Assembly (NCBI GenBank): GCA_030917865.1
Contig: JAUPTX010000002.1
Span: 40 to 64,039, forward strand
Length of the DNA stretch: 64,000 bases
DNA from: Patescibacteria group bacterium
GTDB taxonomy: Bacteria; Patescibacteriota; Minisyncoccia; Phycocordibacterales; CSBR16-119
Direction of reading: 5' to 3'
A model generated the notes under the pieces. It did not search any database. It was given only the letters and a program-made list of their open reading frames with translations, and was not told the origin of the DNA. The first letter of the stretch is position 1; every line of letters begins with the position of its first letter. Positions 15,601-62,850 of this stretch are shown one piece after another. Both the position numbers and the translations under genes were made by a program.

Positions 15601-15643
15601 CATAAGGCTTATAATACTTTAAAATTCCTTTTTTTGCTATATT

Positions 15644-15672
15644 TGACAAAACACTATTTATATGATAATATA
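15644..15672 (+). promoter_or_regulatory. sigma70-type promoter (-35 TTGACA, 17-nt spacer, -10 TAATAT) for the 77-aa ORF at 15700
   Basis: TTGACA at 15644-15649 and TAATAT at 15667-15672, in the context aTTTGACAAa. Confidence 0.4.
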
Positions 15673-15699
15673 TAGAAGAACCTGAACAAATTAGAAACA

Positions 15700-15933: not shown

Positions 15934-15953
15934 ACATGTGAACCATTGAAGTA

Positions 15954-15986
15954 GACCTCGGCCAAGCGCTGGGGTCTTCTTTTTTA
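15954..15986 (+). terminator. intrinsic terminator (GC hairpin ending GGGGTCTTCTTTTTT)
   Basis: GACC..GGTC stem with a CCAAGCGCTGG core, followed by TCTTCTTTTTT. Confidence 0.5.
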
Positions 15987-45346: not shown

Positions 45347-45408
45347 ATATAGGGCGCCTTCGGCGCCCTATATTTTATTTAAAAGCCCTACCAACTGGTA
45401 GGGCTTTT
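45347..45408. terminator. two adjacent GC hairpin terminators (TATAGGGCGCC-TTCG-GGCGCCCTATA + T-run for thrS; AAAAGCCCTACCA-ACTG-GTAGGGCTTTT, bidirectional, for the murD fragment)
   Basis: Seen directly at 45348-45380 and 45381-45408. Confidence 0.7.
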
Positions 45409-45954
45409 GCACGCAAGACGCGCCACAGAACTTCTGAACTCCCGAGATCTATGCTCATAGTTCGTAAAAAGGTCAAAACTTGCACACGCTGGAGAAAGCA
45501 GAACTGTATACCCGGGCTGAGCAAGCTGCATTGCAGACATAACAGCTTCGTCCATTAAAAGACAGTCCGAGGTAACGGGAACGTCTTGAGAGAAAAAATT
45601 CCTCAGACGATCGTTTACCCTGCCCAAGGCAACGATTGCTTTTACCTTCTTTTCGACAGCAGACAGAAGCACCGAATAGTTATTTCCCTTATCGACGCCG
45701 CCAGCAATCCAAATTATTGGACCACCAGTTTCTTCTAGTGCCCACCAAGCAGAATTCACATTGGTTGAAAAAGAATCATCTACAAAACTGATACCTTCGA
45801 ATAGCCCAACTTTTAGCAGACGATAGTCGAGGACCGGACGAAAACCTTCTCGTATTTCGTCTTTAGTTGGAGAAATTCTACCCTCAATACCAACACCCTC
45901 TCTCTTGTGCCCAGCAATGTTTCCGTTTACTGCGATCTCTATTATGTGTCTCAT
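45388..45954 (-). pseudogene. murD: GC-rich gene fragment matching only the C-terminal domain of UDP-N-acetylmuramoylalanine--D-glutamate ligase (MurD); truncated remnant or captured fragment
   Basis: VDDSFSTNVNSAWWALEE...IIWIAGGVDKGNNYSVL...LSPACASFDLFTNYEHRSREF aligns to the MurD C-terminal domain. The ATP-binding and N-terminal domains are absent (188 aa versus about 440). GC is visibly higher than in neighbouring genes. Confidence 0.55.
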
Positions 45955-46031: not shown

Positions 46032-48074
46032 TTATATATCAATATCCGCCAACTTTGCGTTTGTTTGTATAAATGCTTTTCTTGGAGGAACTTCACTTCC
46101 CATAAGCATATCAAAGGTTTTATCAGCTTCGATAGCATCTTCGATTTTAACTTGAAGAAGTATTCTATTGTCTTTATCCATCGTAGTTTCTTTAAGTTCG
46201 TCTGGGTTCATTTCTCCGAGACCTTTATATCGTTGAACAGAAAGTTTTGGCTTCTTTGTCTTTACCTCTTCTTCCTCTTCTACTGGAACACCTTCAGTTT
46301 CTCCAGTTTCTTCAAGATCTGTTTCGGAAACACCTTCTTTCTTTAGGAATTCTTTTTTCTCTTCATCAGAGTAAAGATAGATTTTTTCTTTTCCTTTTGT
46401 CACCTTGTAAAGTGGCGGCTGTGCGATATACAGATATCCAGCTTCTACAACAGGTCGGAAATATCTGTAGAACAAAGTCAAAAGCAAAGTTCTAATGTGT
46501 GCACCGTCAACGTCGGCATCTGTCGCGATGATGATTTTGTGATATCTAATGTCTTCGATATTAAATGTATCGCCGATAGAAGTACCGATAGCAATAACCA
46601 AAGATTTAACTTCGTTTGATGCAAGCATTTTGTCGAGTCTCGCTCTTTCTACGTTTAGGATTTTACCTTTGAGAGGTAGCACTGCTTGAGTTCGTCTATC
46701 GCGACCCATTTTTGTCGAACCACCCGCAGAGTCTCCCTCTACGATAAAAAGCTCTGATTCTTCGGCAGATTTTGACTGACAATCAGCAAGCTTTCCAGGT
46801 AGAGTCATCCCCTCCAAAGCACCTTTTCTCAAAACTGAATCTTTGGCAGCTTTCGCAGCTTTTCGCGCCTTAAGAGCAAGTATCGCTTTGTTGATTATTG
46901 ATTTTGCTTCGTCTGGGTTTTCTTCTAGGAAATTTGCAAATGCATCAGAGAAAACAGACTCAACAGCACCTCGTGCTTCTGGACTACCGAGTTTATCTTT
47001 TGTTTGACCTTCGAATTGGATTTCTGGCATTTTCACAGAAACTACAGCAGTGAGTCCTTCTAGCACGTCGTCTCCAGTAAAGCCACCCTCTTTTTCGTTT
47101 AGGATTCCGTTCTTTTTGTTATAGTTGTTTATGAGTCTTGTCAGTGCGGTTTTAAAACCTGTGACGTGCATACCCCCTCCTGGTGTATAGATATTGTTCG
47201 CAAAAGGAACAATACGAGAAGAAATATCGTCTACATATTGAAGTGCGATTTCAACTGTTATGTCGTCAACTTCTTTTTCAACATAGAAAATTTTATCGTT
47301 AACAGATTTTAGATCTTGGTTGTAGTGAGCAACCATAGAAACAATACCTCCTTCGAAATAAAAAGACATCGAAGGTATTTCAAGACCCAAATCTTTTACA
47401 AAGAAAGTGTCGTCTTCGTTTATCTTTTCTTCGTAGTCCCTAGCATCGTTTATAGTTATACGAAGTTTACGAACTAGGTAAGCCTGCTCTCTGTAGTGGT
47501 TAACAATTCTTTTCCAATCAAATTTAATTTCTTTGAAAATCTCAACGTCTGATTGAAACTTTACGATTGTTCCATTTTCTTTTGAAGATCCGATTTTCTT
47601 AACTTTATATTGAGGTTTACCGATTTTATATTCTTGAACATGCAAGCCACCTTCTCTGTGAACCGTTACTTTCATATGAGTCGAAAGAGCGTTCACCACA
47701 GAAGCACCCACACCGTGAAGACCTCCGGAAACTTTATAACCCTTGTCTTTTCCACCGAATTTACCTCCGGCGTGAAGAACCGTCATGATAGTTTCTAATG
47801 CAGAAACTTTTGTTTTTGAGTGAATACCAACTGGGATACCTCGCCCGTTGTCGGCAACACGCACGTAGTCGTTTGGCAAAAGAGTTATTTCGATATGATC
47901 ACAGTGACCCGCCATCGCTTCGTCGCGAGAGTTATCGAAAATTTCTTTTATAAGGTGATGAAGTCCGTCTGGTCCAGTTGAACCGATGTACATACCAGGA
48001 CGTTTTCTAACAGGCTCTAACCCCTCGAGAACTGAAATGTCATCTGCACTATAGTTACTTGTATCTTTTGCCAT
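46032..48074 (-). CDS. gyrB: DNA gyrase subunit B (type IIA topoisomerase ATPase subunit; ParE cannot be formally excluded)
   Basis: GHKL ATPase N-terminus (LEGLEPVRKRPGMYIGSTG...HHLIKEIFDNSRDEAMAG), a TOPRIM domain and the C-terminal end. Confidence 0.85.
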   Translation of the reverse strand: MAKDTSNYSADDISVLEGLEPVRKRPGMYIGSTGPDGLHHLIKEIFDNSRDEAMAGHCDHIEITLLPNDYVRVADNGRGIPVGIHSKTKVSALETIMTVLHAGGKFGGKDKGYKVSGGLHGVGASVVNALSTHMKVTVHREGGLHVQEYKIGKPQYKVKKIGSSKENGTIVKFQSDVEIFKEIKFDWKRIVNHYREQAYLVRKLRITINDARDYEEKINEDDTFFVKDLGLEIPSMSFYFEGGIVSMVAHYNQDLKSVNDKIFYVEKEVDDITVEIALQYVDDISSRIVPFANNIYTPGGGMHVTGFKTALTRLINNYNKKNGILNEKEGGFTGDDVLEGLTAVVSVKMPEIQFEGQTKDKLGSPEARGAVESVFSDAFANFLEENPDEAKSIINKAILALKARKAAKAAKDSVLRKGALEGMTLPGKLADCQSKSAEESELFIVEGDSAGGSTKMGRDRRTQAVLPLKGKILNVERARLDKMLASNEVKSLVIAIGTSIGDTFNIEDIRYHKIIIATDADVDGAHIRTLLLTLFYRYFRPVVEAGYLYIAQPPLYKVTKGKEKIYLYSDEEKKEFLKKEGVSETDLEETGETEGVPVEEEEEVKTKKPKLSVQRYKGLGEMNPDELKETTMDKDNRILLQVKIEDAIEADKTFDMLMGSEVPPRKAFIQTNAKLADIDI

Positions 48075-48168
48075 ATTTTAGTCGTGTTTTTATTAAAATT
48101 ACCATTATATTATAGCAAATTTTGACACTTTTTACAAAGAAATTTGTGGGAAAAAACAGAGTTTTTGT

Positions 48169-48197
48169 TTGACAAATTAATATAAAATATGTATACT
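48169..48197 (+). promoter_or_regulatory. sigma70-type promoter (-35 TTGACA, 17-nt spacer, -10 TATACT) for the 168-aa secreted ORF
   Basis: TTGACA at 48169-48174 and TATACT at 48192-48197, in the context tTTGACAAa. Confidence 0.45.
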
Positions 48198-48224
48198 TAC
48201 GAGCGAACCAACACAAACAAATAG

Positions 48225-48731
48225 ATGAAAAAACTGATCCTTCTCGCCATCTTTTTCCTGGGCATGATCGCCCAAGAAACATTCGGCCAAACCCGATACG
48301 GATGGGCAAACCCCATACCTGACAGTATGACGTGGAACTTGGACCAGTCGGTCAAAGAGGACTTTATCCTCTCCCCTCCAAGCGGCCAAGGTGACATACC
48401 CTTAGAATCGAGTATCTGGCAGAAACCAGAGAAAGACAAGATGACCGTAAAGATCGTGGCTGTAAGGCCCGCCGATCTCGGATTCGGACTTGGTTACGAC
48501 CACTCCGAATTCATCCTGGCCGCCAAAAAGCTCGGATACCTGCATTGCCCCGAATGGGTCCCAATCCAGGCGTACATGAGCTTTGGAAGGAGCAAGGGTC
48601 ACATCTTCTTCTACACAGGAGAAGCGAAGAAGTACTGGTGCTTTGGCCTATACGGCTACAAAAGCCAAGACCTTTGGAAAAGGACCCTGGACGGCAGACC
48701 TGATTCCATATGGATATTCGTACGAGAGTAA
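48225..48731 (+). CDS. hypothetical secreted protein (168 aa, N-terminal signal peptide), GC-rich cassette
   Basis: MKKLILLAIFFLGMIAQETFGQ signal peptide. The body is rich in aromatic residues and glycine. GC is roughly 50% by eye. A chance ORF of this length at that GC is improbable. Confidence 0.55.
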   Translation: MKKLILLAIFFLGMIAQETFGQTRYGWANPIPDSMTWNLDQSVKEDFILSPPSGQGDIPLESSIWQKPEKDKMTVKIVAVRPADLGFGLGYDHSEFILAAKKLGYLHCPEWVPIQAYMSFGRSKGHIFFYTGEAKKYWCFGLYGYKSQDLWKRTLDGRPDSIWIFVRE

Positions 48732-48744
48732 CAACTCTGGTACA

Positions 48745-48783
48745 AAAACCCCTGAAGCGAAAGCTTCAGGGGTTTCTTGTTTA
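48745..48783. terminator. bidirectional intrinsic terminator (AAAACCCCTGAAGC-GAAA-GCTTCAGGGGTTT + CTTGTTT)
   Basis: Perfect 13-bp stem between the convergent 168-aa ORF and pheT. Confidence 0.7.
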
Positions 48784-50595
48784 TCTTATTTCAAATCCTT
48801 TATCTTTTAATTTTGTGTAAATTTCTTCCATTATCGGAGCAACTTCTTCGTCTGTTAGAGTTTTTTCATGCGACTGAAATACAAGTCTGTAAGCATATGA
48901 AGTCTTGTAATCTTTTTGATACACATCGACAAGTCTCGGCTCTCTTGCTAAAAGATTCGCATCTTTTAAAACTTCTTCTATTTCTTTTTTATCAATCTCG
49001 TTTGGTATCAAAACAGCAATATCTCTTGTGATAAAAGGAAAAGAAGACCATTGTGTAAACTTTTTATTTTCTTTAATCTCATTTTCTGCAAATTTATAAG
49101 AAGAAAAATCTATGTTATTTTCTTTTACAAATTCGTCTAGTGACATTTCTGTCACACCTTTTTTATCCACCAAGGCAATATTTAAAACTTCGGAATCTTC
49201 TGTCGTAAAAACATTTCCGATTTCAAAAAGTTTTACATCATCAAGCCCCAAAACCCCAGCGTTTAATTTATTTATTTCATAAGACTCTTTTATTCCATCA
49301 GAAATATTTGTTCGGAGGTTTGATTTCCCTTTTGGACCACGAGCAACCTCGACCTTACCCTTTTTACCGAAAGTATATGTCATCGTCTCGCTATAGCCTT
49401 CATTTAACAGTTTCAAACGTACGGCAAAAATCTTTGCAAAAGTTTCGTTTATTTTTGGTTTTACAGAAATTTCTGGCATTACTGGCGCAACTTTTTCATA
49501 ACCAATAGTTCTACCAATTTCTTCTACTAAATCTTGCATCATATTTAGATCAAGTCTTTCTCCAGGAACAAAGATTTGGAAAATACCGTTTGTCTCACTG
49601 TAATCAAATCCAAGGGAAAGAACTGCTGTGGTTATCGTCGCGACGTCAAAGTCTACTCCCAAAACCCTGTTTATATCTTTCTGAGATACGACTATTTTTC
49701 TTTTTTCTTGCCACTTTTCTTTTGATTCATAAACGTCGACAATATCTTCAAAAGTTGCATCTGGAAACATTTCAAAAATCAAAGAAGAAAGTTCTGTCAT
49801 ACCGAGCGTCGCGTATTCTGGAGACAAATCATTTTCAAATCTTTTTGTAGAGTCTGTAAGTATGCCAAGTCTTCGTGCTGTCTTTCGCACAGATGAAGGC
49901 GCAAAGTTTGCAACTTCTATAACGATATCTTTTGTATTTTCATCAACTTCGGCTTTTGTTCCGCCTTTTACACCAGCAATAGCGAGAGCGCCTTCTTCAT
50001 CTGCAATAACTAAATCGGTTTCTAAAAGCTCTTTCTCTTCTCCGCCCAAGATTTGTATTTCTTCACCCATCTGAGCATTTCTAATATAGATTGTTTTATT
50101 GTCGGCAATTTTATCATAATCAAAAGCATGCGTTGGCTGACCAACGTTAAACATTACGATATTTGTCGCGTCGACAATATTGTTTATACTTCGCTGCCCA
50201 ATTGATTCTAAGTGCGTTACCATCCACTCTTTAGAAGGTCCGACTTTTACCCCGCGAATAATTCGCGCAGAGTATCTTCGGCAAGCACCTCCTTCTATGT
50301 TTATTTTTAATTCTGTTGGAGCGGATTCAGGAATTTTATATGAGAGTGTCGGATCAACAAAAGGAATATTTAAAAGCCCAGAAAGTTCTTTTGCCACACC
50401 TCTGTGTGAAAGCAAATCGTGCGCTCTGTTTGGCAAAATATTTATATCAAAAATAGTATCTTCTTTTCCATCTTTACCAATAAAAGTTTCTACACCTTCA
50501 ACTTCAGTTAAATGGTATGTGAAAACATCTGCCAATTTTTCAGCAGTCGGAATTTCTGGTATATACCACTTTAGCCAGTTGTAAGATATTTTCAT
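48781..50595 (-). CDS. pheT: phenylalanyl-tRNA synthetase beta subunit (short form, 604 aa)
   Basis: MKISYNWLKWYIP N-terminus, B3/B4 and B5 regions, and a C-terminal catalytic-like domain. Confidence 0.85.
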   Translation of the reverse strand: MKISYNWLKWYIPEIPTAEKLADVFTYHLTEVEGVETFIGKDGKEDTIFDINILPNRAHDLLSHRGVAKELSGLLNIPFVDPTLSYKIPESAPTELKINIEGGACRRYSARIIRGVKVGPSKEWMVTHLESIGQRSINNIVDATNIVMFNVGQPTHAFDYDKIADNKTIYIRNAQMGEEIQILGGEEKELLETDLVIADEEGALAIAGVKGGTKAEVDENTKDIVIEVANFAPSSVRKTARRLGILTDSTKRFENDLSPEYATLGMTELSSLIFEMFPDATFEDIVDVYESKEKWQEKRKIVVSQKDINRVLGVDFDVATITTAVLSLGFDYSETNGIFQIFVPGERLDLNMMQDLVEEIGRTIGYEKVAPVMPEISVKPKINETFAKIFAVRLKLLNEGYSETMTYTFGKKGKVEVARGPKGKSNLRTNISDGIKESYEINKLNAGVLGLDDVKLFEIGNVFTTEDSEVLNIALVDKKGVTEMSLDEFVKENNIDFSSYKFAENEIKENKKFTQWSSFPFITRDIAVLIPNEIDKKEIEEVLKDANLLAREPRLVDVYQKDYKTSYAYRLVFQSHEKTLTDEEVAPIMEEIYTKLKDKGFEIR

Positions 50596-51230
50596 GAGTT
50601 AATTTTATTATATTCTGCTTTATACTCCTCAATATAACGGGAAAACATTTCATTTTTTTGAGAATTAAGTACCTTTAATTTTTCTTCTCTTAACTGTGGA
50701 TCTAATTCTTTCTTATAAAGATCATCTACTTGTGATAAATATATTAGGTTTTGAAATTTAATTTTATTCCAAAGATTATTGTACTCTAACTCCACTAAAA
50801 TATCCTTTGTTTTAGATAAATCAACTACGGTAGAACCCTTATAAAAAATTTTATAAATTTTATTTTGAGTAGAACCAAGCATAGGTAAGCTTATAACCGA
50901 ATTATATGCAGCATGTCTAATCTTATGAACTACTAAAAAATTATTTTCTCTTGATAGATTCATGCAGTATTTGTCTGCATTAGATAAAACGTCATAATCG
51001 TATGTTTTCCCTTCAATATCTGAAAATATTTCTTTTTCTATTAATTTTTTATCTTTATCTAAAATGAAATCTTGTTCATCAAAATCACTTATTTTATCTG
51101 ACAACTCACAAATATACGCAATAAAAACATCGGTCACATTATTAACTATGTATACAGAACTCTCAAACCATTCTTGCTTTTGTCTAAGAAGTGTCCACCT
51201 TTTTTCTTCAAAAATAGATTTACTACTCAT
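50592..51230 (-). CDS. hypothetical AT-rich protein (212 aa) inserted between pheS and pheT
   Basis: Complete ORF starting 3 nt after the pheS stop; its stop overlaps the pheT start by 4 nt. Very AT-rich. No recognised motif. Confidence 0.55.
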   Translation of the reverse strand: MSSKSIFEEKRWTLLRQKQEWFESSVYIVNNVTDVFIAYICELSDKISDFDEQDFILDKDKKLIEKEIFSDIEGKTYDYDVLSNADKYCMNLSRENNFLVVHKIRHAAYNSVISLPMLGSTQNKIYKIFYKGSTVVDLSKTKDILVELEYNNLWNKIKFQNLIYLSQVDDLYKKELDPQLREEKLKVLNSQKNEMFSRYIEEYKAEYNKINS

Positions 51231-52067: not shown

Positions 52068-55000
52068 CTATTTTACTTCTGAATCTGTTATCACATAGGG
52101 CTTACATTTTTGTAATCTTATTGTAGCACTACCCTCGTTATTGTTTTGATTTGCATCTGATTGATCGAGATAATGCAGGACGGCAATATTAGTCCTATTT
52201 CCACAAACCTTTGGTGAATTAGGAACTTTCATTGTTATAAATATATGCGTTTGCTGATTAGGAAAAAGTGTTGGAATGTAAAACATATGAACATTGTTGT
52301 TGTATGCGTTCGTGTTAGGTGTTTGATGAGAGTGATATATCAATCCTGGTGGAATTATTTCTTTAACTTGAACATTTGTAGCAGTATTATCTCCTAAATT
52401 TTTTACATCTATCCTCCAAGTTATATATCTATCAAATAAAGAGAGTGATGAATCAACCAACTCTTTTGCAACCCTTATATCTACTTTTCCATCAGTATTA
52501 ACTGGTGGAGTGTCTCCAACCAAAGCAACACCGAAATCTAAGTTTTCTACTGTTTCTCCGTCTTCTAGCGTGACTGTATACATATGGTTGTAATTTATAA
52601 ATGGATCAGTACTTATTCCCGGCTGTGTCACCGATTGATACAAATTTTCACCTATTAAACCGACGTAATACTCTCCGTCTGGAAGGTTTGTGAATTCGTA
52701 TCTACCGAGGTTTGGAATGTCTTCCGTAGTTGTGGTTTGGATTGGCATGTTGTTACCAGCTTGGAAAAGACCCACCGGAATACCTGCAAGGCGTAGCTCG
52801 GTCGATTGTTGAGAGCCGTTTTGGTTTTGGTCTTGATAAATATATCCATGAATAGAAGAAGTTCCTGCTTTTTTTAAACTTACACCATCAATATAAAACA
52901 TAGAGCTTACAAAAATATTACTCGTGTCAGAAATAAATTCGGGATCAAAAGCAATATAATTATACTCTATTCCATTATCTGGAATAGAAAAGTCTAAAAA
53001 GTATTCTTGCCATAAACCTATATTAGGATGTGAATATGAGTTAAGGTTTACAGGTACAGAAAATAACAAATCTGTCTGATTTGACACAAAAGATTCTTGA
53101 AAAGAAGGACTTGATAAAGGCTCTGCTGAAATATAAATTTTTTGATTGACATTAGATATCCCACCACCTCTTAGATATACACCGCGCCAAACCAATCGAT
53201 AACTACCAGGAAGAATGGGCTCTAAAGTCTTTGTTTGAATACTTTCAACATAAGTAGGCAAGCCAATATAATTACCAGGAACAAAAGAATTGGTCCCGCC
53301 AATATATCTGTTATTTGGAATACCATTATATGTTTCTTGAGGCCCAGAATTAGTCCAAGGAAAATCAAAATTTAAATCTCTAGTATATATATCAGTAGAT
53401 GGTCTAAAGTTACACCAACCAAGAAAATCACTTGGGCATAAAAAAGATAACTGACCTGCTCCATTTCCAGCACCCGGCAAATCTCCGATTTCAAAATTTC
53501 CATTACAAATATATTCATCGGGGTCATTAATACTTTCACAAGATGCTGCAGTCTTTATTAAAGCAGTAAATGAAAATCTGTTTGTATTTGAATTCTTGTT
53601 TGTATACCTAAAAACTCTAGTAGAAGTATCGATGGTTGGAATAATGTTTACAGACACAGAACCTGATGAATTTGATTGAATAGATCCAGTACAATTTGAT
53701 CCTGAGAAATACTGTATTACATCTCCAGGATCTGAAGCAACAACCTCAAAAATGTTAATCTTAAGCTGATTAACAGACCCCCCGGGATTAATATCATTAT
53801 CTAGTAAATTAACACACACTGGCTCTGTTCCATTAAACTGAATAAAATCATTCGTTGCTACCGGACTCGGCACTTCACACCCAGCCAATCCCTCCACCAT
53901 ATATCCCAAATGACACAAAACTTCTAGTTCATGTTCGTGGATATCTCTTTCTGTATTTGTTCCAATTGATGGATGCATTACATAAGTCTGTCCTGGGGCG
54001 CGATTCATGTCAAAGTGCGAAAGAGACGAGCCCTGTTGCCAGCTTGTTGGACTGTAAACAGGGCGAACGCCATCCGGAGCAGCGTTTAAAATATTTTTAA
54101 CACCACGGTAAACAACCTGGTTTGTTACAAACCAAGGAGAAGGGGCTCCGACTGGGACGTTTAATAGGTTTGTGACAGCGGTGATAAATCTGTTTTGAAG
54201 ACTTTCATCTTTGTGTGTGTAGTAGTCAAATGTTCCATGATTATAGGAAATATTGGTTTCATTTATAACCGAAGGCAAAAGACCTCTTAAACCAAGTGCA
54301 TGCATCATCTCATGCCACATAACGGTATAGAAGTCATAAGTATTCGCGTTAAGACTTGAATCAACGCTCCAGTTAATACCATTAAAATTTATTATTATGA
54401 AAGCGTCAAAAGACCCTTGTGCTGGGGTTGGGTTTTGTCTTGAGATGATATGTTTGTGAAGAGAGCCGTTGTCAGGGTTAGCAGAGTAATAGCCCAAATA
54501 TGAAGACGCCCCAGCTAGAGCTCCTGGTGGTAAGGGCTGGTCACTTCTTGTAAAAAGAATATCTGAGGTTACGGTAGTCGTATCTATCATTAGAATCTCT
54601 GACATATCTTCTAGAACCTGACAAGCTTCTTCTCTTCTACCATCTCCATATGTAGGGTCATCAAAACCAACGTTAGTGTTTAGTGCCACATCTTCAAAGT
54701 AGGCTTTGAAGTATCCCGTGACAGATGTATTTGCTCTACAGTTATATACTCCTGGATTACTTGTATCTTCATCGTATGCAACTACTTTTTTTGTTTTTAG
54801 GGAATCCAAGAAAGATTGTTTTCTTGGTTCTTCTTTTTTCATGAAAGCGTTTTCTTTTACCGGGTAACCCCAGGCGTCACGAATTGGTCCAAAGTCAACA
54901 TACTCTAATCCATATTCTTGTTTTAGGATAGCTCTTGCTTTTTCTTCGTCAAAAGGAAGTATCGGTAGGTCAAAGTTTGCCTCTTTTTTGTTTACTGGAA

Positions 55001-55217
55001 GCTTTGAGTATTGATATTGGAAATTAAATACTCCTGGAAATTCTTTTGAAGGAGAGATGTTATAGATGTTTTCACTTATTTGCCCAATCAAAGAAGCTTG
55101 GGCCGAATTTTCTATCTGAAGAATACTTGGAATAACAAGCCCTTGCATAGTAAAAAAAGTAAGAAACAAAATTCCCACAGAAATAATAAAATTTATTGAA
55201 GGTTTATATTTTTTCAT
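52068..55217 (-). CDS. large secreted/surface protein (1049 aa): signal peptide, HExxH zinc-metalloprotease-like region, SdrD-B/CnaB-type domain and C-terminal DUF11 repeat domain
   Basis: N-terminal hydrophobic signal. YTVMWHEMMHALGL (HExxH). A second HEHELE motif. GYIYQDQNQNGSQQSTE...GRYEFTNLPDGEYYV (SdrD B-like). VDIRVAKE...WRIDVKNLGDNTATNVQVKEIIPPGL (DUF11-like). Confidence 0.7.
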   Translation of the reverse strand: MKKYKPSINFIISVGILFLTFFTMQGLVIPSILQIENSAQASLIGQISENIYNISPSKEFPGVFNFQYQYSKLPVNKKEANFDLPILPFDEEKARAILKQEYGLEYVDFGPIRDAWGYPVKENAFMKKEEPRKQSFLDSLKTKKVVAYDEDTSNPGVYNCRANTSVTGYFKAYFEDVALNTNVGFDDPTYGDGRREEACQVLEDMSEILMIDTTTVTSDILFTRSDQPLPPGALAGASSYLGYYSANPDNGSLHKHIISRQNPTPAQGSFDAFIIINFNGINWSVDSSLNANTYDFYTVMWHEMMHALGLRGLLPSVINETNISYNHGTFDYYTHKDESLQNRFITAVTNLLNVPVGAPSPWFVTNQVVYRGVKNILNAAPDGVRPVYSPTSWQQGSSLSHFDMNRAPGQTYVMHPSIGTNTERDIHEHELEVLCHLGYMVEGLAGCEVPSPVATNDFIQFNGTEPVCVNLLDNDINPGGSVNQLKINIFEVVASDPGDVIQYFSGSNCTGSIQSNSSGSVSVNIIPTIDTSTRVFRYTNKNSNTNRFSFTALIKTAASCESINDPDEYICNGNFEIGDLPGAGNGAGQLSFLCPSDFLGWCNFRPSTDIYTRDLNFDFPWTNSGPQETYNGIPNNRYIGGTNSFVPGNYIGLPTYVESIQTKTLEPILPGSYRLVWRGVYLRGGGISNVNQKIYISAEPLSSPSFQESFVSNQTDLLFSVPVNLNSYSHPNIGLWQEYFLDFSIPDNGIEYNYIAFDPEFISDTSNIFVSSMFYIDGVSLKKAGTSSIHGYIYQDQNQNGSQQSTELRLAGIPVGLFQAGNNMPIQTTTTEDIPNLGRYEFTNLPDGEYYVGLIGENLYQSVTQPGISTDPFINYNHMYTVTLEDGETVENLDFGVALVGDTPPVNTDGKVDIRVAKELVDSSLSLFDRYITWRIDVKNLGDNTATNVQVKEIIPPGLIYHSHQTPNTNAYNNNVHMFYIPTLFPNQQTHIFITMKVPNSPKVCGNRTNIAVLHYLDQSDANQNNNEGSATIRLQKCKPYVITDSEVK

Positions 55218-56356: not shown

Positions 56357-56385
56357 TTGACAAAAATACAATAAAGATGTAATTT
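56357..56385 (+). promoter_or_regulatory. sigma70-type promoter (-35 TTGACA, 17-nt spacer, -10 TAATTT) for the 155-aa GC-rich ORF
   Basis: TTGACA at 56357-56362, in the context gGTTGACAAa. Confidence 0.35.
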
Positions 56386-56419
56386 AACGTTTGAAAGAAC
56401 AAACCTTAAACTCAATAGA

Positions 56420-56887
56420 ATGAGAACAATTGAAACACAAGTGCCAAACTGGCAAGGAGTACCAGCTGTTGGAATGGGGAAACTCATCTTCAACGATGTC
56501 ACGTACATATACTGTGTACTAGATACACGATTGTTAATGAAGCTCGCCACCATCTGCAAAGACGGCATACTGGCGGTAAGTATGGACTACCCAGGCGAAT
56601 ATCGCGAGCTAGCACTGATTCACGAACTCATTGAGTTCTCATCTTGGCAAGAAAAAGACCGAAAAAGAGTCTGCTCCTGCCAAAGTGCACTTCAACAAGA
56701 ATTAAGTATGGCCCAAAATCGTGGAATCGATATGGGTGAATACATAAAGCTTAGGCTTGAATTCTTTGAGGGTGTTGTGAGTTATTACGAAGGAAGGACA
56801 GGTAGCGGAGAAGCCACGGAAGAGGAGTGGGAGATCTTTGAGCACGTTGCACAAAGCCGAGACCATCTGAAAAGCCTGGTCCAATAA
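56420..56887 (+). CDS. hypothetical protein (155 aa), GC-rich cassette
   Basis: Complete ORF followed by a perfect terminator. No recognised family. GC roughly 47% by eye. Confidence 0.5.
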   Translation: MRTIETQVPNWQGVPAVGMGKLIFNDVTYIYCVLDTRLLMKLATICKDGILAVSMDYPGEYRELALIHELIEFSSWQEKDRKRVCSCQSALQQELSMAQNRGIDMGEYIKLRLEFFEGVVSYYEGRTGSGEATEEEWEIFEHVAQSRDHLKSLVQ

Positions 56888-56906
56888 CCAAGGACCATTC
56901 CACCAA

Positions 56907-56950
56907 AGCCCTGCCGGGCATTAACCGGCAGGGCTTCTTCTTTTAAAAAA
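56907..56950 (+). terminator. intrinsic terminator (AGCCCTGCCGG-GCATTAA-CCGGCAGGGCT + TCTTCTTTT)
   Basis: Perfect 11-bp stem and T-tail. Confidence 0.75.
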
Positions 56951-56983
56951 AATATTGTAATATGGCCAAAAACGCAGCACAAA

Positions 56984-57334
56984 ATGTTCCACAAACTTCA
57001 CCTCATACACCCAGGAGAACTTCATGGTGAAAACCACGCAGGAAATTATCATTACAACTTCTTCGCACAGAACAGAGATCAAATACCGAAAGGTATAGTT
57101 ATAGACCGCGTATTCCCCGGATTAAGCCTTATCTTTTTTGGAGATCGCGTGGAGAGAAACGGCAACATCTACGCCCCTGGACTTTATCGCGCCAAAGGAC
57201 TTATCTACTGTTCCTTCGCTGACCCAAGCGGATGGGAGGAATATTGGGTCTGTCTAGATGAAGAAGGAGCACCCGTGGTGAAGTACGGAGGACAGGATCT
57301 TTCCATGTACTACCGATACGTGGTGAAGAAGTGA
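56984..57334 (+). CDS. hypothetical protein (116 aa), GC-rich cassette
   Basis: Complete ORF (MFHKLHLIHPGELHGENHAGNYHYNFF...) with its own terminator. Rich in Tyr, Gly and His. No family recognised. Confidence 0.45.
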   Translation: MFHKLHLIHPGELHGENHAGNYHYNFFAQNRDQIPKGIVIDRVFPGLSLIFFGDRVERNGNIYAPGLYRAKGLIYCSFADPSGWEEYWVCLDEEGAPVVKYGGQDLSMYYRYVVKK

Positions 57335-57348
57335 CGAAGATGTCACGA

Positions 57349-57389
57349 AGCCCCGCAGCCGAAGGCTGCGGGGCTTCTTCTTTTTTATA
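57349..57389. terminator. bidirectional intrinsic terminator (GCCCCGCAGCC-GAA-GGCTGCGGGGC + TTCTTCTTTTTT), shared with the convergent helicase gene
   Basis: Perfect 11-bp stem. The tail is near-identical to the 56907 terminator (GGGCTTCTTCTTTT). Confidence 0.75.
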
Positions 57390-60300
57390 TCCTATTTTTT
57401 ATCTCTTCTACCAGCTCACAATATTTTTCATTTCCCTCGCCCATATCTTTTGGATCACAGGGTGTATCCCAAAATTTTAAGTTCAATATTTCATCCGACA
57501 CACGGATTATCTCTGACTTTAGATTTTCCACCTCCTCATCTGTTGGGGCAAATGTGTGTTTTGTAAATTTACCTTTTTCGTCTGGCTCAACGAATTCCAA
57601 AGATCCTTCGTCCATCACAAACTTTCCATCAGCATAAAGCGAAAGAAGAAGTTTATAGAAAACTATTTGCCTATAGTATGCACCATCAGAATCTTTCGTC
57701 TCTCCGCGCACGAATTTTTCTGATTTTGGCTTTCCTGTTTTATAGTCCACCACTCGCACGTGCCTCTCGCTTCCGTCTATAAACTCCAGCTTATCCAACT
57801 TACCAGTTAAACGAATCTCTGAATTTATATAAACCCCATTTATAGGAAGCTCAACCAAGGCATGTTTGTGTAATTTGCCCTTATTTTCTTCATACCACGC
57901 GTCGAGAGTTTTATATCCCTTGTCGAGCAAATCTTCTCTTTCGCTATCTCGAAGAGTTTCGCCAGAAAGTCTTTCTTCAAATTTTTGAAATAAAAATTCT
58001 TTGCCAGGTTCTTCGTATTTCAAGCTTTCAAAAAAAGCCTGAAGAACAGCATGGATCACGGTTCCATAAATCTGACTTCTGTTTTGTGGTTCTGGTAGCC
58101 GGACCAAATTGCGGTAGAAATAACGCCAAGGAGATTTTAGATAATTGTTTAAAGCTGTCACCGAAAGACCTTGAGACAAAAACTTTTCTCTGACGAAATC
58201 TTTGTATTTTTCTTTGTAATCTTCTTTTGTTGGCTTTACTATTTTTTCTTTAAATAAAATTTCTTTTTCTTTAGAAAAATTTTGCACAAAATTATCAGGA
58301 GAAACTATCTCGATAAAATCTGTATCTATCTCGCCGACAAACTGACTCGGCACACGCTCTCGCCCATCAGAAGAAAAAGATCCGTATGAAATATGTATTT
58401 CTTTTTTCGCACGAGTAAGCGCAACATAAAAAAGTCTTCTTTCTTCGTTGTCATTTTCTCCCGAAGAAGATTCGTCAAAATAATCAAAATCATTTTCTTT
58501 TTTATCTTTTATCAAAGAATAAACCGAAGGAAGAAGTTTTAATATTTCTCTTTTAGATTTGTTGCCCCAGTGCCCGTCGTACGCACCAACGATATAAACA
58601 TTTTCAAACTCAAGACCTTTTGATTTATGTGCAGTCATAAGTCTAACCGCGTCGCCTAAAGGTTTCGCTTTTCTTTTAATAGAAAGTCCGTGTTTTTCTA
58701 TGATGTCTAAATATTCACAAAAATCAGAAAGTCTAGCTGAAGGATTTGTTTTTTCTAAATCCCTTGCTTCTTCAAAAAAAGTGTTGATTACTTCGACTTT
58801 TTCAGGGTTTTCTGAAAGAGCTGTTGTTAAAAGTCCTGACTGCCTTAATATCTTTTCTAAACACTCTACAAGTTCTTCGTTTTTAGACGAGCTCACCCAA
58901 CCGGATAAATTCGCATAAGTTTCTAAAAATGATTCTTTGTTTTCTAGAGGCATTTTATCTAGCATTTTTTCCTTATTTGAAATTATGTCGTATAAGTCAA
59001 ATTTTTTCTTATCTTTTGCACTACGAACAACTCGAATTAAATCGATCGGAGAAATTTTGAACAAATCAAGATGAAGCATTTCAGCCAAAACGTCGTCGTC
59101 GCCAAAATTATTTACCGCTTTGATTATTTTAATAAACTTTCTGATATAAGAGTCACGTAAAATATCCTGATCAGATTCTATAACATAAGGGATCCCAAAA
59201 CGTGCCAACATATCCGCCACAGGAAACGCGTCACCATTATTTCTGTATAAAACAGCACAAGAAGACGCACCATTTCCCTCTTTTATTTTTTCTTGTATTG
59301 AAGAAGCGACGAAATAATATTCACTGGCATCGTCTGGAAAAGTGTAGAAATGTATTTTCTTTTCTTTTTCTTTTATATTTGCAGAAAGCTTTTCTCGTCC
59401 CGCCAAAAGACTGTGTGCCGAGTCTAAAATAGTCTGGGTTGAACGATAATTTTCTGTAAGAGTTATAAGTTTAGCTTCTGGATAAAGATGCTTAAAGTAG
59501 AAAAAGTTTTCTAAAGAAGCACCTTGGAATTTAAAGATTGATTGCTTTTTGTCTCCCACAACAAACAAGTTTGGGCTCTCGTGGAAATTCGCCAAGAGCT
59601 CAAGTATTTTATTTTGAGCATTGTTTGTATCTTGATGCTCGTCAACCAAAATATATTGATGATTTTCTTGGAGACGTAAAAGCAAATCAGAGTCTTCTTT
59701 TAGCATCTTCAAAACCTCCATTATCATATCGTTGTAGTCGTAATATTTTTTCTCTACGAGTTTTTCTTCATATTTTCTATAAACCAAAGCAAGTTCTCTA
59801 TTTTTCTCGATTCGTTTTTTCAAATCTTGATATTCATTTTTAATCTTGCCTTTATAGCGACCTTTTTCGTGATAAAGATCAGAAATTTCTTCAAAATCTC
59901 TTTGCGCCAAGAAAACAATATTATCAAAATCTTCAGGCAAAACTCCCTCTCTTTTTAAATCACTTATCGCAGAATTTATGGCTTTTGTGTAATACAAAGT
60001 ATCGCCAAAAGGTTTAAGCAAGCTTAATTTAGTCTCAATTATAATTTCTTCAATTAGAGAAATTTGAATGCTTTCTGTGATATTTTTAGCGCCAATAATT
60101 CTCGGGAAATTTTCTGGATTGTCGCGAATCACATCGTTTGCAAATCCGTGAAAAGTTTTAATCACAACAGAATACGCCGCAGATCCGATAAAATCTGTTA
60201 ATCTTTTACGCATATTAGAAACTCCAGACTCGGTGAAAGTCAGAGCCAAGATGTTTTCTGGGGCGGTGTCTGTTTGTCTTAGAATATTTGCAATACGAAG

Positions 60301-60435
60301 AGACAGGATTTGAGTCTTCCCTGTTCCTGGACCAGCAACAACCATAACTGGGCCTTCTATGGTGTCCACAGCTTCTTTTTGAGCCTTATTTAGCCTTTCA
60401 TAGCTTTCCAAAAACGCTTTTTCATCTTTTTTCAT
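57385..60435 (-). CDS. UvrD/PcrA-family superfamily-1 helicase fused to a C-terminal RecB-like PD-(D/E)xK nuclease domain (AddA-like)
   Basis: Walker A AGPGTGKTQILSLRIANIL and SF1 helicase motifs. C-terminal nuclease motifs (VVDYKTGK and YRQIVFYKLL, the QhxxY motif). No AddB-like partner is adjacent. Confidence 0.8.
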   Translation of the reverse strand: MKKDEKAFLESYERLNKAQKEAVDTIEGPVMVVAGPGTGKTQILSLRIANILRQTDTAPENILALTFTESGVSNMRKRLTDFIGSAAYSVVIKTFHGFANDVIRDNPENFPRIIGAKNITESIQISLIEEIIIETKLSLLKPFGDTLYYTKAINSAISDLKREGVLPEDFDNIVFLAQRDFEEISDLYHEKGRYKGKIKNEYQDLKKRIEKNRELALVYRKYEEKLVEKKYYDYNDMIMEVLKMLKEDSDLLLRLQENHQYILVDEHQDTNNAQNKILELLANFHESPNLFVVGDKKQSIFKFQGASLENFFYFKHLYPEAKLITLTENYRSTQTILDSAHSLLAGREKLSANIKEKEKKIHFYTFPDDASEYYFVASSIQEKIKEGNGASSCAVLYRNNGDAFPVADMLARFGIPYVIESDQDILRDSYIRKFIKIIKAVNNFGDDDVLAEMLHLDLFKISPIDLIRVVRSAKDKKKFDLYDIISNKEKMLDKMPLENKESFLETYANLSGWVSSSKNEELVECLEKILRQSGLLTTALSENPEKVEVINTFFEEARDLEKTNPSARLSDFCEYLDIIEKHGLSIKRKAKPLGDAVRLMTAHKSKGLEFENVYIVGAYDGHWGNKSKREILKLLPSVYSLIKDKKENDFDYFDESSSGENDNEERRLFYVALTRAKKEIHISYGSFSSDGRERVPSQFVGEIDTDFIEIVSPDNFVQNFSKEKEILFKEKIVKPTKEDYKEKYKDFVREKFLSQGLSVTALNNYLKSPWRYFYRNLVRLPEPQNRSQIYGTVIHAVLQAFFESLKYEEPGKEFLFQKFEERLSGETLRDSEREDLLDKGYKTLDAWYEENKGKLHKHALVELPINGVYINSEIRLTGKLDKLEFIDGSERHVRVVDYKTGKPKSEKFVRGETKDSDGAYYRQIVFYKLLLSLYADGKFVMDEGSLEFVEPDEKGKFTKHTFAPTDEEVENLKSEIIRVSDEILNLKFWDTPCDPKDMGEGNEKYCELVEEIKNRI

Positions 60436-62827: not shown

Positions 62828-62850
62828 CCCTTTCGGGATTTTGTTTTATT
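62821..62850 (+). other. plus-strand-oriented hairpin with T-run (ATCCCG-CCCTTT-CGGGAT + TTTGTTTTATT) overlapping the tRNA-Pro 5' end; no plus-strand gene upstream
   Basis: Seen directly. Confidence 0.3.

What the first reader, a model, noticed from the sequence alone, without database searches (positions are those of the whole stretch)
48165..48790. GC-rich cassette encoding a 168-aa signal-peptide protein with no recognisable family
It has a promoter (TTGACA-17-TATACT), a short leader and an ORF with a textbook signal peptide (MKKLILLAIFFLGMIAQETFGQ). The mature part is rich in aromatic residues, glycine and tryptophan (…GFGLGYDHSEF…YWCFGLYGYKSQDLWKRTLDGRPDSIWIFVRE). A perfect 13-bp terminator follows. 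It has about 50% GC between AT-rich gyrB and pheT. An ORF of this length is very unlikely by chance, so it is the best-supported coding member of the cassette family. A secreted protein of foreign composition in a putative episymbiont is a plausible host-interaction factor.
Basis: partly seen in the sequence, partly recalled or inferred. Interest (0 to 1): 0.65.

Follow-up and report, generated by a model that had tools for sequence, protein, structure and literature searches.

The report
Fast-evolving secreted-protein cassette beside gyrB
This is a real, self-contained gene for a small exported protein of unknown fold, found only in one narrow group of ultra-small Paceibacteria (Patescibacteria), always in the same swap-prone slot next to gyrB and with an unexplained, long-maintained GC-rich composition; its function is untested.

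Summary
Positions 48169-48790 form an autonomous unit: the best sigma-70-like promoter in 18 kb, a CA-rich leader without a Shine-Dalgarno motif, a 168-codon ORF (48225-48731) and a 13-bp hairpin terminator. The product has a Sec/SPase-I-type signal peptide and a confidently modelled alpha/beta domain with no Pfam, NCBIfam, PHROG, PDB or Foldseek match.

Only about 30 related protein clusters exist among roughly 15 billion proteins. All 17 contigs that could be examined are Paceibacteria, with the gene in one slot: divergent from gyrB, usually before pheT. The slot holds 1-3 such units from two homologous families.

The gene is under purifying selection (dN/dS 0.10-0.21), but its dN is about 10 times that of gyrB. 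Allele similarity is uncoupled from gyrB similarity, which points to cassette turnover.

GC3 is 0.64 against 0.28 for the window. This excess is shared by all slot genes and persists despite saturated synonymous divergence, so it is not recent import.

Every slot protein has Gln at +1 after the signal peptide, a trait otherwise described for Bacteroidota.

The most likely role is an abundant extracellular interaction protein under diversifying pressure. That function is inferred, not shown.

The parts
46032..48074 (-). gyrB, the conserved anchor gene. The cassette slot lies immediately upstream of its start and is transcribed divergently.
   Evidence: 680-aa ORF. The orthologue in L001 has HATPase_c, DNA_gyraseB, Toprim and GyrB_C domains. 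It is 81-95% identical across loci.
48109..48137 (-). gyrB promoter (TTGTAA-17-TATAAT with an extended TG), back-to-back with the cassette promoter
   Evidence: Scan hit scoring 10/12 with TG. The -10 region ATTATAGCAAATTTT is invariant or near-invariant in 9 loci.
48140..48156 (.). Conserved inter-promoter motif AAATTTGTGGGAAAAAA, function unknown
   Evidence: TGTGGG/TGGGGA plus an A-run is conserved in the 9-locus alignment A4.
48169..48197 (+). Cassette promoter TTGACA-17-TATACT
   Evidence: Scores 11/12, the best match in 18 kb. TTGACAAA is invariant in 9 loci. The same promoter is repeated before each gene in multi-gene arrays.
48198..48224 (+). Short CA-rich 5' leader (GAACCAACAC at 48205-48214) without a Shine-Dalgarno motif
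   Evidence: Sequence. A GAACCAAMAC-like leader is present in 22 slot genes, and 0 of 22 have an SD-like 4-mer. Native genes also mostly lack one (2/31).
48225..48287 (+). Signal peptide (residues 1-21, MKKLILLAIFFLGMIAQETFG). Predicted SPase I cleavage is G21|Q22.
   Evidence: Inspection of the n, h and c regions. Q22 is invariant in 21/21 family A and 10/10 family B sequences, always preceded by A/G/S.
48288..48731 (+). Mature 147-aa protein (about 17 kDa, pI about 7.9, 15.6% aromatic residues, 7 Trp) plus the stop codon. An N-terminal arm carries the WNL and W.KP motifs. The alpha/beta core carries P.DLGF, CP.WVPVQ.Y, G.N, DLF/DLW and WIF/WVF.
   Evidence: Alignments A1 and A3. AF2 model with pLDDT 83 and pTM 0.75. 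dN/dS 0.10-0.21. Composition.
48746..48775 (+). Intrinsic terminator hairpin (13 bp, 7 G-C pairs, GAAA loop), placed between the convergent cassette and pheT, so probably bidirectional
   Evidence: Scan. Folding energy -25.6 kcal/mol. An equivalent GC hairpin plus T-run follows every slot gene in 10 loci. The minus strand reads GGGGTTTTTG after the stem.
48781..50595 (-). pheT, the conserved distal boundary of the slot in most loci
   Evidence: 604-aa ORF. B3_4, B5 and FDX-ACB domains in the orthologues.

Best explanation
The region 48169-48790 is an autonomous, probably strongly expressed transcription unit. It encodes a Sec-exported, SPase-I-processed protein of about 17 kDa whose mature N-terminus is glutamine.

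The protein belongs to an orphan superfamily with two homologous families, A and B. The superfamily is confined to a narrow clade of Paceibacteria. There, 1-3 such units always fill one accessory slot, immediately upstream of gyrB and divergent from it, usually before pheT.

The slot behaves like a chromosomal counterpart of phage 'morons'. Each gene brings its own conserved promoter, CA-rich leader and hairpin terminator. Gene number and allele type change between near-identical genomic backgrounds.

The protein is functional: it is under purifying selection and its fold is confidently predicted. It also diverges about ten times faster than its neighbour and exists as deeply diverged alleles whose distribution ignores the gyrB tree. 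That is the pattern expected for an extracellular protein under diversifying or frequency-dependent selection.

My best reading is that it is an abundant secreted or wall-associated binding or recognition module. It would act at the interface between this ultra-small, presumably host-dependent cell and its partner or enemies.

The GC-rich, nearly unbiased codon usage is a long-maintained property of slot genes, not a trace of recent import.

Shown: the anatomy, coding status, export-signal features, restricted distribution, slot conservation, evolutionary rates, allele uncoupling and compositional persistence.

Inferred: high expression, N-terminal pyroglutamate, extracellular binding function, and the selective regime.
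For: Anatomy.

Coding and functional:
- dN/dS is 0.10 (W-L001), 0.15 (L002-L003) and 0.21/0.13 (L004-L007).
- The AF2 model has pLDDT 83 and pTM 0.75.

Orphan and restricted:
- No match in Pfam, NCBIfam, PHROGs or PDB sequences.
- Only 18 representatives at E<1e-3 among 1.84 billion representative proteins.
- Only 4-10 clusters per family in the word-indexed search of 5.8 billion clusters.
- Among 80 GTDB loci ranked by gyrB similarity, HMM hits occur only where the gyrB N-terminus is at least 85% identical.

One superfamily: hhalign of A3 against A6 gives probability 95.7%, E 1e-8, and the two AF2 models share the same order of secondary-structure elements.

Slot: all 17 distinct contigs place the genes next to gyrB and/or pheT, with no exception.

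Cassette architecture: the divergent promoters are invariant in 9 loci, and each array member has its own promoter and terminator.

Rates: slot dN is 0.256 against 0.028 for gyrB, 0.110 against 0.000, and 0.127 against 0.009 in the same genome pairs.

Allele turnover: family A identity against gyrB identity gives Spearman rho 0.07, p 0.56. For example, L002/L019 are 99% (gyrB) against 33% (family A), and W/L002 are 88% against 64%.

Composition:
- GC3 is 0.42-0.65 in slot genes, mostly 0.48-0.65, against 0.25-0.35 in the flanks, in every locus.
- Four-fold sites are about uniform in slot genes, against A .34, C .10, G .12, T .44 in core genes.
- The excess persists at dS of 0.6 to above 2, and a decay model would need an ancestral GC3 above 1.

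Precedent: highly expressed signal-peptide proteins of unknown function have been proposed as attachment factors in cultured Paceibacteria (PMC10936435).
Against: - There is no direct evidence of expression, secretion or binding.
- SignalP could not be run.
- The fold has no significant structural neighbour, so nothing supports a binding activity in particular.
- No anchor motif explains how the protein would be retained on the cell.
- dN/dS is below 1 overall, and site-wise positive selection could not be tested with so few close sequences.
- Allele uncoupling could come from differential loss out of an ancestral multi-paralogue array rather than from exchange.
- The 190-aa gyrB yardstick is short and highly conserved.
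- The cause of the sustained GC3 is unexplained.
Confidence: 0.55

Rival explanations
1. The gene is foreign DNA. It was acquired by horizontal transfer from a GC-richer donor, plausibly a Bacteroidota given the Q-at-+1 signal peptide, and has not yet adjusted to the host genome.
For: - GC3 is 0.64 against 0.28, with both G-ending and C-ending codons enriched. That pattern fits a donor with about 50% GC, not the native translational-selection pattern.
- Q is invariant at +1. The Q-rule is described as Bacteroidetes-specific (PMC5837995).
- Q at +1 occurs in 17/21 GC3-excess signal-peptide ORFs against 4/28 others, p 5e-6.
- Bacteroidota are over-represented as HGT partners of Patescibacteria in aquifers (PMC12455944).
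Against: - No homologue turned up outside this Paceibacteria clade, in an exhaustive search of 1.84 billion cluster representatives (standing for about 15 billion proteins) and word-indexed searches of 5.8 billion clusters.
- Position and promoter are conserved in 15 or more independent assemblies.
- The promoters are sigma-70 type, native to the recipient.
- The GC3 excess persists although synonymous sites are saturated between orthologues. Passive decay would require an ancestral GC3 above 1.
- My guess of a T9SS sorting domain in a neighbouring GC-rich ORF was tested and failed.
- An ancient Bacteroidota origin of the family cannot be excluded, but recent import is contradicted.
Confidence: 0.12
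2. The proteins are extracellular immunity or inhibitor proteins. They would neutralise hydrolases or toxins secreted by hosts or competitors (for example lysozyme-, amidase- or protease-type), and they diversify in an arms race.
For: - They are small, secreted, single-domain proteins in tandem paralogue arrays that evolve fast and differ by allele between strains. This profile is typical of periplasmic or extracellular inhibitor families (my own knowledge).
- A T6SS amidase immunity complex appears among the weak Foldseek matches, at E 4.5, which is not significant.
Against: - No cognate toxin or effector gene is in the slot.
- There is no sequence or significant structural similarity to known inhibitor families.
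- The PADLOC defence library was not searched.
Confidence: 0.15
3. What selection conserves is the divergent transcription unit, not the protein. A strong back-to-back promoter upstream of gyrB would modulate the supercoiling-sensitive gyrB promoter through transcription-generated supercoils. The ORF would be a replaceable passenger.
For: - The invariant elements across 9 loci are the two promoters, with -35 elements about 31 bp apart, and a motif between them. The coding sequence diverges to 25-35% identity.
- In the sister clade the same position holds unrelated ORFs.
- Slot mRNAs are unusually stable. Synonymous-permutation z averages -2.1, against -0.66 for core genes, Mann-Whitney p 0.003.
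- Relaxation-stimulated gyrB transcription and twin-domain supercoiling are established in E. coli (my own knowledge).
Against: - Purifying selection acts on the protein, and the signal peptide and Q at +1 are conserved.
- Downstream array members, far from gyrB, keep the same architecture.
- The same cassette type occurs elsewhere in the window, away from gyrB.
- Some relatives have an empty slot (L022, L027, L029, L030).
Confidence: 0.1
4. The ORF is spurious, or an assembly chimera in which GC-rich DNA from another organism was joined into an AT-rich contig.
For: There is an abrupt compositional step at both ends.
Against: - The identical protein is on 7 contigs from several sources.
- Syntenic homologues occur in at least 16 other independent assemblies, with the junction sequences (promoters) conserved.
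- dN/dS is 0.10-0.21.
- The fold is confidently predicted.
Confidence: 0.01

Closest known systems
Phage 'morons': single ORFs with their own promoter and terminator, inserted between adjacent genes, with deviant nucleotide composition (definition as given in PMC4378225)
   Same: - One ORF per unit.
- Its own sigma-70 promoter and factor-independent terminator.
- Composition unlike the neighbouring genes.
- Present or absent between genes that abut in related genomes (gyrB and pheS/T are adjacent in L022, L027, L029 and L030).
- Acquisition mechanism unknown.
   Different: - It sits in a bacterial chromosome between housekeeping genes, not in a phage or prophage.
- The units form tandem arrays of homologous genes with a shared promoter sequence.
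- The compositional deviation is old and maintained, not recent.
Bacteroidota Q-rule substrates: Sec/SPase I proteins with Gln at +1 that glutaminyl cyclase converts to pyroglutamate (PMC5837995, PMC10653852)
   Same: - Cleavable signal peptide ending in A/G/S, followed by an invariant Gln.
- Gln at +1 is one of only three invariant residues in family A.
   Different: - The organism is a Patescibacterium, not a Bacteroidota.
- No glutaminyl cyclase has been identified.
- Pyroglutamate has not been shown.
- No T9SS or other Bacteroidota feature was found.
- The library holds no paper linking the Q-rule to Patescibacteria.
Highly expressed signal-peptide proteins of unknown function in cultured Paceibacteria, proposed as host-attachment factors (PMC10936435)
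   Same: Same bacterial class. Both are exported proteins without assigned function, proposed to act at the host interface.
   Different: Those proteins carry recognisable PGBD, Ig-like or PKD domains. This family has no recognisable domain, and no expression data exist for it.
Integron gene cassettes
   Same: Small, single-gene, modular units arrayed in tandem at a fixed chromosomal site, with variable content between relatives.
   Different: - Each unit here has its own promoter, whereas integron cassettes are usually promoterless.
- The hairpins are perfect GC stems with T-runs (terminators), not attC sites.
- No integrase is nearby, and there are no flanking repeats.
Hypervariable surface or secreted antigen loci flanked by conserved genes and exchanged by homologous recombination (a general class, from my own knowledge)
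   Same: Conserved flanks, deeply diverged alleles whose distribution is uncoupled from the flanking phylogeny, and extracellular products.
   Different: No evidence yet for recombination tracts. The function and the selective agent are unknown.

Membership tests
Sec/SPase I secreted protein | N-terminal positively charged n-region, a hydrophobic h-region of about 10-15 residues, and small residues at -3 and -1 | tested here: met
   MKK, then LILLAIFFLGMIA, then T-F-G|Q. The same layout is conserved in 21 family A and 10 family B sequences. This was judged by inspection and heuristic only; SignalP was not available.
Sec/SPase I secreted protein | Not a lipoprotein (no lipobox Cys) and no further transmembrane segment or anchor | tested here: met
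   No Cys in residues 1-25. The AF2 model shows a soluble alpha/beta domain after the signal helix. No LPXTG motif or C-terminal hydrophobic stretch.
Bacteroidota Q-rule substrate | Gln at +1 of the SPase I cleavage site | tested here: met
   Q22 is invariant in A3 (21/21) and A6 (10/10). Q at +1 occurs in 17/21 GC-rich signal-peptide ORFs against 4/28 others.
Bacteroidota Q-rule substrate | Encoded in a Bacteroidota genome that also encodes glutaminyl cyclase | tested here: not met
   The context is Paceibacteria in all loci. A glutaminyl cyclase gene was not searched for genome-wide, because only 64 kb is available.
Bacteroidota Q-rule substrate | N-terminal pyroglutamate on the mature protein | not testable with these tools
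   This needs proteomics.
Moron-type autonomous accessory cassette | A single ORF flanked by its own promoter and a factor-independent terminator | tested here: met
Moron-type autonomous accessory cassette | Nucleotide composition different from the adjacent genes | tested here: met
   GC 0.507 against 0.35-0.40, and GC3 0.64 against 0.25-0.31.
Moron-type autonomous accessory cassette | Inserted between two genes that are adjacent in related genomes | tested here: met
   pheS/pheT abuts gyrB with no intervening ORF in L022, L027, L029 and L030.
Moron-type autonomous accessory cassette | Resides in a phage or prophage genome | tested here: not met
   The flanks are thrS, gyrB, pheT and pheS. 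There was no significant PHROG hit and no relative in viral contigs.
Integron gene cassette | An attC recombination site at the cassette 3' end and an intI integrase with attI nearby | tested here: not met
   The 3' structures are perfect GC hairpins plus T-runs. There is no integrase-like ORF in the flanks and no boundary repeats. No dedicated attC covariance model was run.
C-type lectin-like / DUF1566 fold | Significant structural or profile similarity to CTLD, FGE or DUF1566 domains | tested here: not met
Diversity-generating retroelement target | A template/variable repeat pair and a nearby reverse transcriptase | tested here: not met
   No repeat involves 48225-48731 within 40-62 kb. There is no RT-like ORF in the flanks.

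The most novel reading that the evidence does not exclude
The slot beside gyrB may be a dedicated effector locus. In it, this Paceibacteria clade would keep secretory proteins of Bacteroidota-like design (Gln at +1, about 50% GC, unbiased codons) behind a conserved strong promoter. This would be either because they were captured from Bacteroidota hosts or because they function against them.

If so, slot content and the Q-rule signature would work as a genomic marker of host range for an uncultured lineage. The sustained GC3 would then reflect an active, locus-specific force, such as selection on the mRNA, biased gene conversion during cassette exchange, or a hidden GC-richer reservoir.
Probability: 0.12. 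Interest if true: 0.8.

Novelty: new variant of a known kind. Interest (0 to 1): 0.55.

Why it matters
Hosts and host-interaction mechanisms are unknown for almost all Paceibacteria. This finding offers three things:

1. A concrete candidate locus that is easy to find, because it is anchored to gyrB. It carries fast-evolving, allele-swapping secreted proteins that can be followed in metagenomes, metatranscriptomes and metaproteomes.
2. A compositional puzzle. GC3 has stayed at about twice the genome level through saturated synonymous divergence, which cannot be explained as un-ameliorated HGT. The puzzle can be tested with population data.
3. The first indication I could find of a Q-rule-like signal-peptide design outside Bacteroidota.

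It also shows that moron-like autonomous cassettes are a recurrent architecture in this genome: at least six lie within 64 kb.

Tried and rejected
1. Native translational selection as the cause of high GC3. Rejected. Highly expressed core genes use T or A at four-fold sites and only favour C at NNY codons, whereas slot genes are near-uniform, with G-ending codons enriched too.

2. A T9SS C-terminal sorting domain in the GC-rich Q+1 ORF L009:12086-13024. This was my recollection of the motif. There were no Pfam or NCBIfam hits, so I dropped it.

3. A C-type lectin or DUF1566 fold. Only weak BFVD hits, no PDB support, and family B points elsewhere. Not supported.

4. A difference in Shine-Dalgarno usage between slot and native genes. 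None found; the organism is largely SD-less (2/31 against 0/22).

5. DGR or integron mechanisms. No repeats, RT, integrase or attC-like sites.

6. Pattern scans of GTDB genomes, JGI metagenome contigs and IMG/VR with the close alignment A1 found no relatives. The wider alignment A3 was too diverse for pattern design.

7. Selection for mRNA structure as the full explanation of the GC content. There is a real but uneven excess: z averages -2.1 against -0.66, p 0.003, and W itself scores -1.9. Not decisive.

9. Replication orientation from GC skew. The skew follows gene orientation here, so I make no claim about head-on orientation.
Full report
**1. What is at the coordinates**

The window contains, exactly as described, an ATG-initiated ORF at 48225-48731 on the + strand (168 aa). 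Upstream lies TTGACA-17-TATACT at 48169-48197. It scores 11 of 12, the best sigma-70-type match in the 18 kb scanned. Downstream lies a perfect 13-bp hairpin at 48746-48775 with a T-rich tail.

The hairpin sits between the ORF and the convergent pheT (stop at 48781). It reads GGGGTTTTTG on the other strand, so it probably terminates both genes (inference).

The ORF has GC 0.507 against 0.366 for the window. Its GC3 of 0.639 is the highest of all ORFs of at least 80 aa; most have 0.20-0.35. gyrB (46032-48074) and pheT (48781-50595) flank it on the opposite strand.

**2. It is a real gene with no known family**

Pfam, NCBIfam and PDB sequence searches return nothing, even at E up to 10. Profile searches against the PDB and per-member scans of Pfam and PHROGs also give nothing meaningful.

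An exhaustive phmmer search of 1.84 billion representative proteins finds only 18 relatives at E<1e-3, all 162-199 aa. The word-indexed searches of 5.8 billion clusters find 4 and 7.

Nei-Gojobori estimates for the closest pairs give dN/dS of 0.10, 0.15, 0.21 and 0.13. This is clear purifying selection, so the ORF encodes a functional protein.

AlphaFold2 on the 21-sequence alignment gives a confident model (pLDDT 83, pTM 0.75). It shows a signal helix, an N-terminal arm with the conserved WNL and W.KP motifs, and a beta-alpha-alpha-beta4 core.

**3. Export signal**

The N-terminus has a classic layout: MKK, a 13-residue hydrophobic core, then T-F-G followed by Q. There is no lipobox cysteine. 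This layout is conserved across all family members, although the mature parts fall to about 25% identity. Q22 is one of only three invariant residues. SignalP was not available, so this rests on inspection and conservation.

The mature protein is 147 aa, about 17 kDa, with pI about 7.9. It is 15.6% aromatic, including 7 Trp, and has no anchor motif.

**4. A conserved slot, not a stray insertion**

I recovered the genomic context of every relative that sits on a usable contig. In all 17 distinct contigs the gene lies immediately upstream of gyrB and divergent from it, and/or immediately before pheT. The contigs are W, L001-L005, L007-L015, L019 and L021. There are no exceptions, even for relatives at 25-35% identity.

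The slot holds one to three genes. A second family (B) often accompanies family A. Profile-profile comparison shows that the two are homologous (hhalign probability 95.7%, E 1e-8). Their AF2 models share the same order of secondary-structure elements.

Named records identify the organisms as Candidatus Paceibacterota or Patescibacteria MAGs.

I also scanned 80 GTDB species loci ranked by gyrB similarity, using HMMs of both families. Hits occur only where the gyrB N-terminus is at least 85% identical to the window's, so the superfamily is confined to a narrow clade.

In the sister clade (gyrB 76-79% identical) the same position holds other GC-rich genes with signal peptides. These belong to unrelated orphan families. 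In some relatives the slot is empty, with pheS/T abutting gyrB.

**5. Cassette architecture**

The 150-bp region between gyrB and the slot gene is conserved in nine loci. The conserved elements are:
- an invariant extended -10 and a -35 for gyrB;
- an invariant TTGACAAA followed 17 bp later by a GTATAAT-like -10 for the slot gene;
- a TGTGGG motif between the two promoters.

In multi-gene arrays every gene carries its own copy of this promoter. Each also has a CA-rich leader (GAACCAAMAC) and a strong GC hairpin plus T-run.

The window contains at least five more units with this architecture, all on the + strand: about 7753-8283, 10335-10660, 15643-15985, 56357-56940 and 56940-57385. The closest described analogue is the phage 'moron' (definition in PMC4378225). 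These units, however, lie between chromosomal housekeeping genes. No phage, integron or DGR signature is present.

**6. Evolutionary behaviour**

In the same genome pairs, slot dN is about ten times that of gyrB: 0.256 against 0.028, 0.110 against 0.000, and 0.127 against 0.009.

Across 13 genomes, family A similarity is uncorrelated with gyrB similarity (Spearman rho 0.07, p 0.56):

| Genome pair | gyrB N-terminus identity | Family A identity |
|---|---|---|
| L002 / L019 | 99% | 33% |
| L010 / L013 | 99% | 30% |
| W / L002 | 88% | 64% |

Deeply diverged cassette types are therefore either exchanged within the clade or differentially retained from paralogue arrays. Decayed remnants support ongoing birth and death. 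These include signal-peptide-only mini-ORFs of about 22 aa in L005 and L010, and a frameshifted copy in L021.

**7. The composition problem**

The GC3 excess is shared by every slot gene in every locus: 0.42-0.65, mostly 0.48-0.65, against 0.25-0.35 in the flanks. This includes a relative in a GC-richer genome (0.65 against 0.45-0.50).

| Codon class | Slot genes | Core genes |
|---|---|---|
| Four-fold sites (A / C / G / T) | .27 / .27 / .23 / .23 | .34 / .10 / .12 / .44 |
| G share at NNR codons | 0.49 | 0.21 |

Codon usage in slot genes is close to uniform. The bias is therefore not the native translational-selection pattern, which only favours C at NNY codons.

Synonymous divergence between orthologous slot genes is 0.6 to above 2. 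A two-state decay model using even the slower flank clock would require an ancestral GC3 above 1. Passive amelioration after a single old import is thus untenable. The composition is either maintained or renewed from a pool.

One possible contributor is selection for mRNA stability. With synonymous-codon permutation, all 16 slot CDSs fold better than their permuted versions, with a mean z of -2.1. Twenty-eight core-gene segments average -0.66 (Mann-Whitney p 0.003). The effect is uneven, and W's gene scores -1.9. The cause remains unexplained.

**8. Gln at +1**

Every family A and family B member has A/G/S followed by Q at the predicted cleavage site. So do most of the unrelated slot proteins in the sister clade.

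I applied a simple, explicit signal-peptide heuristic over about 90 loci. Q at a candidate +1 occurs in 17 of 21 ORFs with GC3 excess, against 4 of 28 others (p 5e-6). The four exceptions are themselves slot genes.

Two caveats apply. Many of these ORFs are homologous to each other, and the heuristic cannot separate cleaved signal peptides from N-terminal anchors.

Exposure of N-terminal Gln by SPase I, followed by cyclisation to pyroglutamate, is described as a Bacteroidetes-specific trait that stabilises extracytoplasmic proteins (PMC5837995, PMC10653852). I found no report of it in Patescibacteria. Bacteroidota are over-represented as HGT partners of Patescibacteria in aquifers (PMC12455944).

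This makes an old Bacteroidota connection a legitimate lead. However, no Bacteroidota homologue was found, and a specific prediction (a T9SS sorting domain in a neighbouring ORF) failed.

**9. Most likely function, and rivals**

The shown facts are:
- a strong conserved promoter and terminator;
- an export signal;
- a compact, conserved fold;
- rapid but constrained divergence;
- tandem paralogues;
- allele turnover in a fixed slot;
- in several genomes, neighbouring large surface-type proteins with NHL, beta-propeller or SdrD-B/DUF11 domains.

These fit best with an abundant extracellular protein that acts at the interface between this ultra-small cell and its partner or enemies, under diversifying pressure. 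Cultured Paceibacteria do express exported proteins of unknown function highly, and these have been proposed as attachment factors (PMC10936435).

Whether the protein binds a host surface, blocks a hostile enzyme, or serves mainly as cargo of a transcription unit that tunes the adjacent gyrB promoter cannot be decided from sequence. I rank the possibilities in that order. A spurious ORF or an assembly chimera is excluded.

**10. Verdict**

It is wrong in implying recent foreign origin. The feature is a new, lineage-restricted protein superfamily carried in a chromosomal, moron-like, hypervariable slot anchored to gyrB. Two properties remain unexplained: the sustained GC-rich unbiased codon usage, and a Q-rule-like signal peptide outside Bacteroidota.

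Noticed in passing
window 7753-8283, 10335-10660, 15643-15985, 56357-56940, 56940-57385 (all + strand): Five further autonomous cassettes share this architecture: a TTGACAA-type promoter, a CA-rich leader, a small ORF richer in GC than its surroundings, and a GC hairpin plus T-run. They encode two TM peptides of about 50-58 aa, two 77-aa proteins, and 155-aa and 116-aa proteins without signal peptides. The 155-aa ORF has a 73%-identical orthologue at the same position (between the rhodanese gene and the UvrD/AddA-like helicase gene) in L004. Other GC-rich ORFs occupy that position in L008 and L010.
   Followed up: partly
window 45388-45954 (-); L001 3374-4021: A stand-alone ORF of 188-215 aa matches only the C-terminal (glutamate-ligase) domain of Mur ligases (Pfam E 1.8e-5, below the curated cutoff). 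It lies between thrS and gyrB, has elevated GC (0.455) and evolves fast (57% identity between genomes whose gyrB is 95% identical). Other relatives lack it and have small coiled-coil ORFs there instead.
   Followed up: partly
L008 7608-8741, L009 13212-14342, L022 2713-3846, L023 2230-3363, L027 2694-3827: Some close relatives replace the two-subunit pheS/pheT with a single protein of about 377 aa that combines tRNA-synt_2d and FDX-ACB. This is the domain layout of monomeric, mitochondrial-type PheRS. L009 has this form although its gyrB is 90% identical to the window's.
   Followed up: no
window 50592-51230 (-): A very AT-rich 212-aa orphan ORF (GC 0.258, GC3 0.19) is wedged between pheT and pheS. 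L004 has a 114-aa Nuc_deoxyrib_tr-like ORF at that position, and L010 has nothing. This looks like a second small variable slot, of opposite compositional sign.
   Followed up: no
L007 about 581-700 and L009 about 6826-6950 (alignment A4, columns 17-107): An insertion of about 90 bp carries a GC-rich perfect hairpin (GCACCCAGCACCTTTCGCGAAAGGTGCTGGGT). It lies between the gyrB start codon and the gyrB promoter in two loci only. It could be a miniature mobile element or a 5'-UTR structure.
   Followed up: no
window, upstream of many core genes (e.g. 62849-63445, 57385-60435, 20702-21952, 52068-55217): Only 2 of 31 core genes have a Shine-Dalgarno-like 4-mer. Many have a TATAAT-like -10 element within about 7-15 nt of the start codon, which suggests widespread leaderless or very short-leader mRNAs in this organism.
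   Followed up: partly
L005 about 668-736; L010 about 2881-2952: Downstream of the slot gene's terminator lie ORFs of 22-23 codons that encode only a signal-peptide-like hydrophobic segment (MKKTVVTTIVLLLISFVYVGCDT and MKVKVHIPTFVVVLMIWLVYPAD). Each has its own hairpin terminator. They may be decayed cassettes or small membrane peptides.
   Followed up: no
window 48140-48156 and alignment A4: A conserved motif (AAATGTGGGAAA / AAATGGGGAGAA) lies between the back-to-back gyrB and cassette promoters, whose -35 elements are about 31 bp apart. It could be a regulator binding site, or relevant to supercoiling coupling of the two promoters.
   Followed up: no
window 52068-55217 (-); L002 1476-3734; L009 8089-13024: The interval from gyrB to pheS, and the region just beyond it, often carries large native-composition surface-type proteins. 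Examples are a 1049-aa protein with metalloprotease-like, SdrD_B and DUF11 domains; NHL/SBBP plus CarboxypepD_reg proteins; and fragmented beta-propeller repeat ORFs. L009 also has a GC-rich 312-aa orphan with a ...VQA|QE signal peptide. The whole neighbourhood looks like a hotspot for cell-surface genes.
   Followed up: partly
L021 4001-5863 and 2700-3216: In this GTDB representative (JAWKSO010000001.1), gyrB is broken into three ORFs and the family A gene into two. This reflects either assembly or frameshift errors, or genuine pseudogenisation.
   Followed up: no
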